The notes under the pieces are model-generated. The model searched no databases, had not been told where the DNA came from, and saw nothing but the letters and a program-made list of their open reading frames with translations. 64,000 nucleotides of DNA, from NCBI GenBank assembly GCA_019057385.1, contig JAHQJS010000005.1:256799-320798 (forward strand), read 5' to 3'. Every line of letters begins with the position of its first letter. Within the stretch, counting starts at the first letter, position 1. The stretch is from Candidatus Borrarchaeum weybense (GTDB lineage Archaea > Asgardarchaeota > Sifarchaeia > Borrarchaeales > Borrarchaeaceae). Shown here one piece after another: positions 5,390 to 25,262 of the stretch. The translations under genes were made by a program, and so were the position numbers.

Positions 5390-5528
5390 TATTATAACAT
5401 CAAACTTCCATTCTCTTATTTTTTCGCTTCTAAAAAAGTTAATTTAAGATCAAACAATGACCTTTCACAACATTTTTAAATAACTGTAAAAGAAGAAAAA
5501 TCTTACACTGCCTTTTTATGATACGAAT

Positions 5529-5667
5529 AGCCCGGTGGTGTAGCGATGTGGATGATTTTTATCCCATTGCAAATTGGCCAAGCATAGTGGGCTTTGGACT
5601 CGCTGAGAATTATCTAACCTTATTACGATAATTCGCGGAAACCCCAGTTCGAATCTGGGCCGGGCTA
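5529..5667 (+). tRNA. tRNA-Gln(UUG) with two non-canonical introns (16/17: 5545-5573; 45/46: 5606-5640)
   Basis: Acceptor AGCCCGG/CCGGGCT, anticodon loop CT-TTG-GA (5594-5596), T arm CCCAG-TTCGAAT-CTGGG; both inserts fold as 4-bp helices flanked by 3-nt bulges. Confidence 0.9.
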
Positions 5668-5784
5668 TCACTTTTTCAAGCAATGTAAAACCATATGAAT
5701 AAATTAAAAAAAAGTTATCTAAATCACAATAGAAATCCGCATCTCAGAAAGGCTACACTTATTATATGAGTGACACGAAACGCT

Positions 5785-19421: not shown

Positions 19422-19548
19422 TGGCGCCGGGGGAGGGATTTGAACCCTCGAGCTCCAATGGAGCACAGGCTCTCAGATCTGGTTTCCAGGCATGAGCTGC
19501 AATGAATGACGCTTGCATCTGCTCCCTACCAGGCTAAGATACCCCGGC
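19422..19548 (-). tRNA. tRNA-Ser (most likely GGA) with two introns (29/30: 19492-19518; 37/38: 19472-19483), CCA encoded
   Basis: Acceptor GCCGGGG/CCCCGGC-G-CCA, long variable arm GCTCC/GGAGC, TTCAAAT loop; intron 1 has a GAGC/GCTC helix with AGA and ATG bulges; intron 2 has a relaxed helix. Confidence 0.85.
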
Positions 19549-20280: not shown

Positions 20281-21317
20281 CTATTGTTTAAAGGATTTCC
20301 ACTCTGGATACGTTGAGCGTGGCATTATGACTTTCTTTGTATTAGCAACTATGCCATGATCTATTTCAAGAATCTCTTTACTTAACATAGTAGCCTCAGC
20401 AATACCAATTGCTTCGCCTTTCTGAGTAAATATGGCTACAGTACCACCTGGTTTGATATTATCGCTTAACTTTAATACACCAGGCGCCGTTAATTTTGCC
20501 CCATGGCATATTGCATCGACTGCAGAGTCTCGAATCACCAGCTTTGGAAGATGAACTAAGCCTTCTTCCACAGGTTGTATTACCTTACGCAGATACTGTT
20601 CCTTTCCATCCTCTTTCCAATAGTGATATGCATCGTTTACTTCAAGAAGTGTAACAAGAGTGTCATCCTCCTTGAATGGACCTGCACGCGTTCTCCTTAG
20701 TTCTAACATATGAGCCCCCGTGCCCAACACTTCGCCAATATCATGTACCAGCTTCCTCATATAGAATCCCGCTTCGCAACCGACTCGAATGAGCACGTCT
20801 TTTCCTAAAATTTCTAATACATTTGTATAATATACTCTACGGATTCTTAAGCGTCTTTTTACAGAAGATCTTAGTGGAGGACGCTGATAAAGTGGGCCTG
20901 TAAACTCTTGACATATTGTCTCTATTTTTTCGTGATCTACTTCTTTGTGAAGACGCATTATGCAGATGTATTCTTTCCCAGCAGGAAGCCAACTTTGTAC
21001 AACCTTTGTTGCACGTTCTAAAGCAACTGGAAGAATTCCTGTTACGCCGGGATTACTCTATTCTGAAGATTAACTCACCTTCAGAACTCTAGAGTCCCTC
21101 CATGTCCTGCTTTCTTTAATTCCAGAATTCTTTTGATCCATGCTACAACTTCATGACTTGTTGGTCCAGCAGGTTTATCTAAATTGATTATTCCAAAGGC
21201 TAAATGCTTTTCAATAGGACGTTCAGCAGGCTTATAACCCCATTCAGGATTTGTCGCCTCCTGTGCTTTAGTGATTAATTCTCCCCGCACGTCACTAGGT
21301 AGGCGGCCTCTTTCCAT
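20281..21317 (-). CDS. cbf5: H/ACA pseudouridine synthase Cbf5, two exons (21317-21089 and 21053-20281; 333 aa after splicing)
   Basis: [17 protein letters not shown]|DPGVTG restored by removing 35 nt, PUA domain. Confidence 0.95.
21054..21088 (-). other. 35-nt BHB intron in cbf5 at the catalytic Asp codon
   Basis: mRNA GGGA-CUCU-AG|A-GUUCUGAAG...CUUCAGAAU-AGAG-UA|A-UCCC forms a strict BHB; splicing gives CTA GAT CCC (L-D-P). Confidence 0.95.
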
Positions 21318-23813: not shown

Positions 23814-25262
23814 TCATCCAAATCCTAAGAAATCTCTGAGGGATGGATGTATATCTGCTAATCGCTCTTTAGCTATGATCTCATAATATTGTGATATTAT
23901 CATAGTAGCTAACAGAATCCCCATGCCTGTACCAAGTGCTCCAAGATAATCTGCAAAAGCGGCTATAAGCGCAATCGCCACACCACCCCATATAGAGGCG
24001 GGACCAATGTAACGCTTCAGTAATTTTTCAAGTATCTTTGGACTACTTCTAAATCCAGGAACCATCATTCCTGCATCTAAAAGTTGCCTTGCCACATCTT
24101 TTGGAGCCATTCCTCCAACTTCAATCCATGTTACTGAGAAAATGGTGCACGCAACAATTAATACTAATAGATAAACTACAGCCCTCAAGGGATCCGCTGT
24201 CACCACTTCAATGCCTCGTGGAGGCGTCAAATAGTAGACAAGACCTCCTACAGGTTTCAATCCTGCATCTGTCGACTCGAAAGTACCAATTAAATTGTAC
24301 CAGAAGTTAGAGTTGCTCTTATTGTAACGTGACCATAATAACTGCCCAATAAGGTAAACATTAGCGAAGAAAGCCGCTGCAAGAATCACAGGAATATTCG
24401 AAGCGTAAAAGAATTTGATAGGATATCTTCCTTTAAAACCACGATATTTGGCATACGTAAGTGGTACTTCTATGCGAATAGCCTGCATGTAAATAACGAT
24501 AACAAACACAACTGCTGTGGCAATGAATCCTGTCATGTCTGGAAGGCTGCCTGGACGATCAAATGCGGTCATGGCATCTCCTTCAGCAATATATTGTCCA
24601 AGAGCTATGAGCGCACCATGATATTTACCGTCATCTGAAATTACAAGTCCTAAAGAGTTCCATGCTACCTGTTCGGCTACACCAGCAGCAATAAAGAGAG
24701 AAATTCCTGAGCCAAGACCCCATCCTTTCTGCAATAATTCGTCCATTAGCATGAGGACTATACCGGCAGCTATAAGCTGAATGAATATAAGAATTGTGAT
24801 ATCGATGGATAAGGTTCCAAACGCACCTCCGATAAGATATGCTAACGCCTGAAACACTGTCATTATTACACTTAACACTTTTTGAGCAGCAGTAAATAGA
24901 GAACGGTCTTCTGGATCCGAGAAGTCTACGTCAATGATCTGACTGCCAGATAATAACTGCATAACCAGCCCTGCAGTTACTATTGGGCCGATCCCCAACT
25001 CCATGAGTGTTCCTCTAGAACTCGCAAGAATGGTTCGCATCCAGAATTCCGCGAGCTATCTAAGTGATAGTTCTCTAAACGGGTCTGGACCGATATTCTT
25101 TGGAAGTCCATATAGAGGAATTTGTGCCATAACTAAATATAAGAGAAGACAAAGTACCGTATAAACTGCCTTTTCTTTGAAAGACACATCTCGATCTGGT
25201 TTCCCGACCTCTGGTATAACTCTCGATAATGGAGAGAAAATGCGTAAAAATGTACCTGTCAA
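23814..25262 (-). CDS. secY: Protein translocase SecY/Sec61alpha, two exons (25262-25077 and 25046-23814; 472 aa after splicing)
   Basis: PEV.KP, QIPLYG, DPF|FWMRTILASSRGTLMELGIGPIVT, KGWGLGSGISLFI, YPIKFFYASNIP, GTGMGILL. Confidence 0.93.
25047..25076 (-). other. 30-nt BHB/BHL-type intron in secY containing an in-frame TAG
   Basis: mRNA CCAGA-C-CCGU-UU|A-GAG-AA-CUAUC-acuua-GAUAG-CUC-GCGG-AA|U-UCUGG; splicing gives GAC CCG TTT TTC TGG ATG (DPFFWM). Confidence 0.85.

What the first reader, a model, noticed from the sequence alone, without database searches (positions are those of the whole stretch)
25047..25076. tRNA-type (BHB) intron inside secY/Sec61alpha mRNA
Seen: secY is broken by an in-frame TAG inside a 30-nt segment. 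It folds as outer helix CCAGA/UCUGG, a 4-bp central helix CCGU/GCGG with 3-nt bulges UUA and AAU (one extra C, so a relaxed BHB/BHL), and an inner hairpin GAG..CUAUC/GAUAG CUC. Cutting after the second nucleotide of each bulge, the EndA rule, gives exactly DPF-FWMR, matching eukaryotic Sec61alpha DPFYWMR. Established: cbf5 is the well-documented archaeal mRNA intron; I know of no secY case. Inference: production of the essential translocon depends on tRNA splicing endonuclease plus ligase (EndA/RtcB); unspliced RNA yields a 68-aa stub. Speculative: this parallels non-spliceosomal XBP1/HAC1 splicing by tRNA ligase that controls eukaryotic secretory capacity, here in a probable Asgard archaeon.
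Basis: partly seen in the sequence, partly recalled or inferred. Interest (0 to 1): 0.95.

Follow-up and report, generated by a model that had tools for sequence, protein, structure and literature searches.

The report
tRNA-type intron splitting archaeal secY
The only gene for the protein-export channel SecY in this Asgard archaeon (Sifarchaeia/Borrarchaeaceae) is interrupted by a 30-base intron of the kind normally cut out of tRNAs. Close relatives lack exactly those 30 bases, so the messenger RNA almost certainly has to be spliced, something confirmed so far in archaea for essentially one other gene (cbf5).

Summary
secY lies on the minus strand (25262..23814) and carries a 30-nt insert (25047-25076) with an in-frame TAG. 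It folds as its minimum-energy structure into a relaxed bulge-helix-bulge (BHB) motif.

- **Exact boundaries.** Cutting after the second nucleotide of each bulge gives DPF|FWMR. That is the sequence of relatives with 98% identical exons, which lack exactly these 30 nt.
- **RNA-level selection.** Five intron-bearing sequences (80-94% nt identity) vary at 4 of 5 loop positions and at 0 of 47 helix and bulge positions, against 56% of third codon positions elsewhere in the gene.
- **Second intron.** A sister species has a second, 28-nt BHB insert in secY. It shifts the frame, so only RNA splicing can rescue the gene.
- **Internal control.** cbf5, 4 kb away on the same strand, has a canonical 35-nt BHB intron at the known site.
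- **Machinery.** The genome encodes alpha- and beta-type EndA subunits and RtcB, and has a single secY.

No RNA data were available, so splicing is inferred. The genome also has PylS and tRNA-Pyl, so read-through of the TAG is a real but weaker rival. The intron is patchy among close relatives, which argues against a conserved HAC1/XBP1-like regulatory role. This scan has found similar mRNA introns in other archaeal genomes. Verdict: a new member of a known kind.

The parts
25077..25262 (-). secY exon 1: TTG start preceded by GGTGA, 62 codons, encoding TM1 and the first part of the plug
   Evidence: Pfam Plug_translocon matches profile positions 1-24 of 35. Among intron-bearing sequences the exon shows a coding-type substitution pattern: 9/57, 4/56 and 27/56 variable sites at codon positions 1, 2 and 3.
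25047..25076 (-). 30-nt BHB intron with an in-frame TAG that sits inside the inner stem
   Evidence: Exactly these 30 nt are absent from L001, L002, L003, L006, L025, L026 and L029. They are present in L004, L005, L027, L028 and L050, differing only in the loop.
23814..25046 (-). secY exon 2, including the stop codon. Gene callers report only the 408-aa ORF that starts at the M of FWMR.
   Evidence: Pfam SecY matches 1-306 of 306. NCBIfam SecY NF006341 matches profile 65-463 of 464, so the N-terminal 64 positions are missing from this ORF.
25039..25090 (-). Whole BHB motif. Outer helix 25090-25084 pairs with 25045-25039. Extra C at 25083. Central helix 25082-25079 pairs with 25052-25049. 5' bulge 25078-25076, cut between 25077 and 25076. 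3' bulge 25048-25046, cut between 25047 and 25046.
   Evidence: Minimum-energy fold. No variable columns among 22 exonic and 25 non-loop intronic positions in five sequences.
21054..21088 (-). Companion and internal control: a canonical 35-nt BHB intron in cbf5 (exon 1 21317-21089, exon 2 21053-20281). It splits the catalytic Asp codon as G|AT.
   Evidence: Splicing restores GHGGTL|DPGVTG. The intron is present in 4 species of the genus with bodies of different length (about 30-35 nt) and sequence but the same BHB core, and is absent in G005. The site is the same as in Crenarchaeota (PMC2738675).

Best explanation
The 30 nt are an archaeal bulge-helix-bulge (tRNA-type) intron in the pre-mRNA of the single secY gene. 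The proposed pathway is as follows. The transcript folds so that exon 1 and exon 2 sequences form the outer helix, and exon 1 pairs with intron sequence to form the 4-bp central helix. The heteromeric (alpha-beta)2-type splicing endonuclease cuts after the second nucleotide of each 3-nt bulge. RtcB joins the exons and probably circularises the intron. The product is an mRNA for a normal 472-aa SecY with an intact plug (DPF|FWMR). The following are shown here: the structure, the exact boundaries, selection on the structure, the machinery genes, and the same kind of intron in cbf5. Cleavage and ligation of this RNA are inferred. The intron is most likely a dispensable passenger kept spliceable by selection on an essential gene, not a regulator.
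For: 1. The relaxed BHB is the minimum-energy fold. 2. The EndA rule predicts unambiguous boundaries that coincide with the indel against intronless relatives, whose exons are up to 98% identical in nucleotides. 3. Five intron-bearing sequences show 0/25 variable non-loop intron columns, 4/5 variable loop columns and 0/22 variable exonic BHB columns (0/7 third positions). Elsewhere in secY 261/465 third positions vary. Intronless relatives vary at all five third positions of GGN CCN GAY CCN TTY. 4. L005 and L027 (G003) carry a second insert of 28 nt at codon 19. It folds with a 4-bp helix CGGG/CCUG and AAA bulges, and the same cut rule removes exactly 28 nt. Because it shifts the frame, it cannot be translated through. 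5. cbf5 in the same cluster has a strict BHB intron at the published site. 6. A third case is a 29-nt strict BHB insert at MGAAGRD|FHNFN of a GTPase-like gene, also present in G003. 7. The genome has two EndA paralogues. One aligns to the catalytic repeat and keeps Y..H..K. The other aligns to the structural repeat and beta-subunit models and lacks the His. RtcB is intact. 8. There is one secY in a genome scored 100% complete, and exon 1 is under coding selection. 9. Contigs from independent studies carry the insert unchanged. 10. Borrarchaeaceae are reported to carry about 2 introns per tRNA gene and (alpha-beta)2-type EndA (bioRxiv 10.64898/2026.10.13.758758).
Against: No spliced transcript was seen, because no usable RNA data exist for this organism. 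All stems are invariant, so there are no compensatory changes and therefore no covariation proof. The motif is not strict: one extra C lies opposite the 3' bulge. The insert is in frame, and the genome has PylS and tRNA-Pyl(CUA), so translation through the TAG is conceivable.
Confidence: 0.85

Rival explanations
1. The insert is translated. UAG is read as pyrrolysine, which this lineage can encode, giving a SecY with a 10-residue insertion (RELSLR-Pyl-LAE) in the plug. No RNA splicing is needed.
For: PylS scores 281 bits against a cut-off of 178, and tRNA-Pyl(CUA) lies next to it. Sifarchaeia are reported to recode UAG (PMC9723677). The insert is a multiple of three. PMC2738675 notes that in-frame BHB inserts might stay unspliced.
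Against: The substitution pattern is that of an RNA structure, not of codons. All 8 third positions outside the loop are invariant, while the single loop codon changes Leu/Phe/Pro. The insert breaks the Pfam plug domain: 57 bits over profile 1-35 in the intronless relative, against 34 bits over 1-24 in the read-through. No aligned homologue has an insert at this site, and across 400 Asgard genomes the interruption was seen only in this genus. TAG ends 23% of long ORFs in this genome. The 28-nt insert in the same gene of G003 and the phase-1 cbf5 intron cannot be rescued by recoding.
Confidence: 0.07
2. The ribosome hops over the insert by programmed translational bypassing, as in T4 gene 60, or the gene works as two separately translated pieces (the 68-aa stub plus the 408-aa ORF).
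For: Phe codons flank the 30-nt insert (TTT ... TTC), and AAA flanks the 28-nt insert. A hairpin sits in the gap. An ATG lies just after the insert.
Against: A hop from TTT to TTC would give DPFWMR, one residue shorter than every homologue. No stop follows the take-off codon. The cbf5 insert splits a codon and has no matching landing codon. Neither idea explains the conserved bulges and 4-bp helix. The two-piece model fails in G003, where exon 1 is itself broken by a frameshift. No Shine-Dalgarno-like sequence precedes the internal ATG.
Confidence: 0.03
3. It is an artefact or a decaying gene: an assembly error, or a secY pseudogene.
For: The genome is a metagenome assembly with 7% estimated contamination.
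Against: The same insert occurs in contigs from several independent studies and assemblers (L004, L005, L027, L028, L050, and runs X5 and X9). secY is single-copy. Both exons are under purifying selection.
Confidence: 0.01

Closest known systems
cbf5 pre-mRNA intron of Crenarchaeota (Watanabe 2002; Yoshinari 2006; Yokobori 2009, PMC2738675)
   Same: [quoted passage not shown] It is associated with hetero-oligomeric (alpha-beta)2 EndA and is patchily gained or lost among relatives. This genome carries that very intron at the same codon.
   Different: The host gene is different (secY, the translocon channel), the phylum is different (Asgard, Sifarchaeia/Borrarchaeaceae), and the intron is in frame with a TAG rather than splitting a catalytic codon. 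A second independent intron occurs in the same gene in a sister species. There is no cDNA confirmation here.
Archaeal tRNA and rRNA BHB introns
   Same: Same motif, same predicted enzymes (EndA, RtcB), and the same lineage-wide high intron load.
   Different: The substrate is an mRNA inside a ribosomal-protein/secY gene cluster. No tRNA body is available to help recognition, so the BHB alone must suffice.
HVO_1309 mRNA cleavage and splicing by EndA in Haloferax volcanii (as summarised in PMC10485636)
   Same: EndA acts on an mRNA outside cbf5.
   Different: Here the coding sequence of an essential gene is interrupted.
IRE1-dependent HAC1/XBP1 splicing in eukaryotes
   Same: It is non-spliceosomal, uses an endonuclease plus a tRNA ligase (RtcB in metazoa), and the mRNA is linked to secretion.
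   Different: The HAC1/XBP1 cut sites are, from my own knowledge, in 7-nt loops of twin hairpins, and I did not check this in a paper here. In secY the cut sites lie in 3-nt bulges flanking a 4-bp helix. I did not search for an IRE1 homologue. There is no evidence of regulation, and the intron is absent in near-identical relatives. The resemblance is one of analogy only.

Membership tests
Archaeal BHB (EndA-type) intron in a pre-mRNA | [quoted passage not shown] | tested here: met
   Minimum-energy fold. The form is relaxed: one extra unpaired C lies between the outer and central helix on the 5' strand. The 28-nt intron of L005 has an extra U at the same place.
Archaeal BHB (EndA-type) intron in a pre-mRNA | Cuts after the 2nd nucleotide of each bulge reproduce the uninterrupted coding sequence | tested here: met
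   Removing 25076..25047 gives CCGTTT|TTCTGG (DPF|FWMR), identical to the intronless relatives. The boundaries cannot slide, because the flanking bases differ.
Archaeal BHB (EndA-type) intron in a pre-mRNA | The host encodes a splicing endonuclease able to accept relaxed motifs, and an RNA ligase | tested here: met
   Two EndA paralogues are present: a catalytic-type one with Y..H..K and a structural, beta-like one lacking the His. RtcB matches its full profile with no stops. The subunit arrangement itself is inferred.
Archaeal BHB (EndA-type) intron in a pre-mRNA | Selection acts on the RNA structure rather than on codons | tested here: met
   0 of 47 helix and bulge columns vary and 4 of 5 loop columns vary, against 56% of third codon positions elsewhere in the gene.
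Archaeal BHB (EndA-type) intron in a pre-mRNA | Compensatory base-pair changes (covariation) | tested here: inconclusive
   All paired positions are invariant in the five secY sequences. In cbf5 the first inner pair switches between G-U and G-C among species.
Archaeal BHB (EndA-type) intron in a pre-mRNA | Spliced RNA and excised (circular) intron observed | not testable with these tools
   No RNA holder of this stretch was listed, and the one run labelled metatranscriptomic did not cover the site. No contig with the spliced junction and window-type flanks exists in the JGI metagenome contigs.
Pyrrolysine-recoded in-frame UAG | The Pyl machinery is present, and the UAG-containing segment evolves as coding sequence and is conserved in homologues | tested here: not met
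   The machinery is present, but the segment is absent from close relatives and from all other homologues examined. It also shows a structure-type, not codon-type, substitution pattern.
IRE1-type unconventional splicing (HAC1/XBP1) | Cut sites in 7-nt loops of twin stem-loops, with an IRE1 kinase/RNase sensor | tested here: not met
   The cut sites lie in 3-nt bulges flanking a 4-bp helix. An IRE1 homologue was not searched for.

The most novel reading that the evidence does not exclude
Splicing of secY is a rate-limiting, condition-dependent step that ties the supply of translocon to EndA/RtcB activity, which would be an archaeal counterpart of HAC1/XBP1 logic. The same may hold for cbf5 on what is probably the same polycistronic transcript. 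Alternatively, because this lineage has tRNA-Pyl, unspliced mRNA could be read through to give a second SecY isoform with a 10-residue plug insertion. A broader and more likely version is that Borrarchaeaceae carry an actively turning-over population of BHB introns in many protein genes: two in secY, one in cbf5, one in a GTPase-like gene, and further candidates noted elsewhere in this genome.
Probability: 0.07. Interest if true: 0.88.

Novelty: new member of a known kind. Interest (0 to 1): 0.62.

Why it matters
Reviews up to 2023 credit archaeal endonuclease-mediated mRNA splicing with two genes, cbf5 and HVO_1309, and expect more (PMC10485636). None of my searches of the held papers returned a secY case. 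Here the interrupted gene is the universally essential protein-conducting channel, in Asgard archaea, the closest prokaryotic relatives of eukaryotes. Species of one genus carry zero, one or two introns in it.

That gives a clean natural experiment on gain and loss of protein-gene introns. It also shows that gene callers truncate such genes: secY is annotated as a 408-aa fragment. Finally it offers a defined substrate (a 52-nt motif) for testing how alpha/beta EndA recognises relaxed BHB motifs outside a tRNA body. It does not by itself show regulation.

Tried and rejected
- **RNA evidence.** The look-up of sequencing runs listed no RNA holder. The one run labelled metatranscriptomic (X20, share 0.10) had no contig over 24898-25071, so it gave no verdict. 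In run X4, contigs stop at 25031 and 25078 on either side of the intron. This may reflect mixed strains and is not evidence.
- **Spliced junction in public contigs.** A pattern search of the JGI metagenome contigs for either form with window-type flanks found one contig, which is intron-bearing.
- **Known RNA families.** Rfam at gathering threshold found nothing in the window.
- **Repeated element.** The intron is not repeated. blastn-short against the genome found only itself.
- **Other Asgard genomes.** In a search of 400 genomes, the only stops inside the secY N-terminus were in this genus. Five genomes with weak or split matches turned out to be cut off at contig ends. 249 matches were not listed, so the absence is not complete.
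- **Genome-wide scan.** First passes gave 8,491 and then 1,791 candidates, mostly gene boundaries. Only the filter for agreement with the minimum-energy fold was useful. Deoxyhypusine synthase and a methyltransferase were false positives, because their domains are complete in one fragment. A glycosyltransferase candidate (C1:34167-34234) is unresolved.
- **TBP check.** My strict motif does not pick up the inserts in the TBP gene. An MFE-based cut at the first site removes 31 nt and breaks the frame, whereas 30 nt would restore GKLVCTGGKS. That case is therefore not confirmed here.

Full report
**What is there**

The window holds an archaeal ribosomal-protein cluster on the minus strand: L18, S5, L30, L15, secY, adenylate kinase, an EMC3/TMCO1-family gene, L34e, and further on cbf5. 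The secY frame runs from a TTG at 25262, preceded by GGTGA, to 23814. It reads NIGPDPF-RELSLR*LAE-FWMR. The ten extra codons are 25076..25047, exactly the coordinates given. Gene callers therefore report only a 408-aa ORF beginning at the M of FWMR. That ORF aligns to positions 65-463 of the 464-position NCBIfam SecY model. The 68-aa upstream ORF carries the first 24 of 35 positions of the Pfam plug domain.

**Structure**

- The outer helix is GUCCAGA/UCUGGAU.
- One unpaired C follows it on the 5' strand.
- The central 4-bp helix is CCGU/GCGG.
- The two 3-nt bulges are UUA and AAU.
- An inner hairpin closes the intron.
- For the 56-nt stretch z = -3.5, and for 126 nt z = -5.0.

The arrangement (helix strand first, then bulge, on each strand) is that of a BHB. 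The published rule, a cut between the 2nd and 3rd bulge nucleotides (PMC2738675), removes exactly 30 nt. The extra C makes it a relaxed motif.

**Comparison with relatives: the decisive evidence**

The nearest SecY proteins fall into two groups. One group is 472 aa long and has the plug domain. The other is about 408 aa long and lacks it. The 472-aa forms (P0002, P0003) read DPF|YWMR or DPF|FWMR and have no insert.

At the DNA level, the contigs split as follows.
- Seven contigs lack exactly the 30 nt: L001, L002, L003, L006, L025 (Ca. Borrarchaeum yapensis), L026 (Ca. Sifarchaeum marinoarchaea) and L029 (Ca. S. subterraneum).
- Five carry it besides the window: L004, L005, L027 (Promethearchaeota DZ3M.366), L028 (Borrarchaeota Yap75) and L050.

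The indel boundaries cannot slide, so the BHB rule predicts them exactly.

The five distinct intron-bearing sequences are only 80-94% identical in nucleotides. Their variation is distributed as follows.

| Region | Variable columns |
|---|---|
| Hairpin loop | 4 of 5 |
| Other intron positions | 0 of 25 |
| Exonic positions of the motif | 0 of 22 (including 0 of 7 third codon positions) |
| Third codon positions in the rest of the gene | 261 of 465 (56%) |

Intronless relatives vary at all five third positions of GGN CCN GAY CCN TTY. This is selection on an RNA structure, not on codons. No compensatory changes are available, because the stems never vary.

**A second intron in the same gene**

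L005 and L027 (species G003) carry a further 28-nt insert at codon 19 (PEVGK|PDR). Its fold has a 4-bp helix CGGG/CCUG flanked by AAA bulges, again with one extra nucleotide next to the outer helix. The same cut rule removes exactly 28 nt. Because 28 is not a multiple of three, recoding, read-through and a tolerated insertion all fail to rescue the gene. Only removal at the RNA level can.

**Internal controls**

A blind scan of the whole 4.18-Mb genome required a BHB motif, restoration of a broken reading frame and agreement with the minimum-energy fold. It returned eight loci.

The two best by energy were secY and a strict 35-nt BHB insert at window 21054-21088. That second insert splits cbf5 at G|AT of the catalytic Asp and restores GHGGTL|DPGVTG. 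This is the published cbf5 intron site. The intron is present in four species of the genus, with bodies of different length and sequence but an identical BHB core. It is absent in the outgroup G005.

A third hit is a strict 29-nt BHB insert at MGAAGRD|FHNFN of a GTPase-like gene (C7:592073-592101). It is also present in G003, where 3 of the 4 substitutions inside the insert fall in the hairpin loop.

**Machinery**

The genome has two EndA paralogues.
- One aligns to the catalytic repeat of the two-repeat enzymes and keeps the Y..H..K pattern.
- The other aligns to the structural repeat and to beta-subunit models, and lacks the His.

This fits the (alpha-beta)2 type that accepts relaxed motifs and was linked to cbf5 splicing. 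A full-length RtcB is present. A recent preprint reports about 2.1 introns per tRNA gene in Borrarchaeaceae and two EndA paralogues in most Asgard genomes.

**The gene is needed and is not an artefact**

- There is one secY in a genome scored 100% complete.
- Exon 1 keeps a coding substitution pattern.
- DNA contigs from independent studies span the insert unchanged.

**Rivals**

The most serious rival is pyrrolysine. The genome has PylS and an adjacent tRNA-Pyl(CUA), and Sifarchaeia are reported to recode UAG. Read-through would give a 10-residue insertion in the plug. Four points argue against it.
- The substitution pattern is structural, not codon-like.
- The insert breaks the plug domain: 57 bits over profile 1-35 without it, against 34 bits over 1-24 with it.
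- TAG ends 23% of long ORFs in this genome.
- The frame-shifting second intron and the phase-1 cbf5 intron cannot be explained this way.

Some read-through of unspliced mRNA cannot be excluded.

Translational bypassing would yield DPFWMR, one residue short of every homologue, and cannot restore the Asp codon of cbf5. A two-piece SecY fails in G003.

**Distribution and meaning**

The GTDB class holds six species. Three of the five species in the genus carry intron 1. Across 400 Asgard genomes no other interruption of this part of secY was seen in the listed matches.

On an exon-only tree the intron is patchy.
- The window's nearest sequence, L003, has 98% identical exons and lacks the intron.
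- L025 (no intron) groups with L004 and L005 (intron-bearing).
- L028 (intron) groups with L026 (no intron).

This implies at least three precise losses or gains. The intron is therefore dispensable. Its strict conservation is what one expects for any intron in an essential gene. The HAC1/XBP1 analogy remains speculation.

**What is missing**

There is no RNA evidence.

**Literature**

Within the library searched, archaeal mRNA splicing is documented for cbf5 and HVO_1309 only, and no secY case was returned by any of my searches. Other agents of this scan have reported BHB introns in EF-2, rtcB and Fe-S genes of other archaea. First-stage notes list further candidates in this same genome. Of these I confirmed only the GTPase-like one independently. 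The TBP case could not be confirmed with my rule.

**Verdict**

This is a real, well-supported BHB intron in secY. It is a new member of a known kind. I put the confidence that the mRNA is spliced at about 0.85.

Noticed in passing
window 20281-21317 (minus); intron 21054-21088: cbf5 carries a canonical 35-nt BHB intron at G|AT of the catalytic Asp, the same site as in Crenarchaeota, but here in an Asgard archaeon. It lies on the same strand as the secY intron and 4 kb downstream of it, probably in one gene cluster. It is present in four species of the genus, with bodies of about 30-35 nt, and absent in Ca. Sifarchaeum subterraneum.
   Followed up: yes
L005:1313-1340 and the corresponding site of L027 (species G003): A second, 28-nt frame-shifting BHB intron in secY at codon 19 (PEVGK|PDR). 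It is absent from the window and from L004, which is the sister of L005 on the tree.
   Followed up: yes
G000 C7:592073-592101 (minus); locus L012: A 29-nt strict BHB insert (UGGA/UCCA, CGUG/CACG, bulges AUA/AAU) lies at MGAAGRD|FHNFN of a 459-aa GTPase-like gene. It is also present in G003, where 3 of the 4 substitutions inside the insert fall in the hairpin loop.
   Followed up: partly
G000 C7:142596-143312 and C7:143743-143811: A PylS C-terminal domain gene (281 bits) lies next to a tRNA-Pyl(CUA). TAG nevertheless ends 23% of ORFs of 250 codons or more.
   Followed up: partly
G000 C6:542671-543199 (TBP gene): The second TBP repeat is split into pieces. Both repeats have hairpin-bearing inserts right after GKLVCT, and the first is in frame with no stop. 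Removing 30 nt would restore GKLVCTGGKS, but the minimum-energy BHB-like fold predicts a 31-nt cut, so this is not confirmed as a BHB intron.
   Followed up: partly
window 5528-5669 and 19422-19548: ARAGORN in intron mode calls tRNA-Lys(UUU) with a 57-nt insert and a tRNA-Gly with a 31-nt insert. ARAGORN in default mode and Rfam find no tRNA anywhere in the 64-kb window, so the tRNA genes here are masked by introns.
   Followed up: no
G000 C1:13917-15008: A second, shorter RtcB-like ORF (409 aa open frame) lacks profile positions 89-131.
   Followed up: no
window 25000-25125 (minus): The exon sequences flanking the BHB pair further, extending the outer helix by about 20 bp (z = -5.0). Whether this is selected or a by-product of the conserved codons was not tested.
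   Followed up: no
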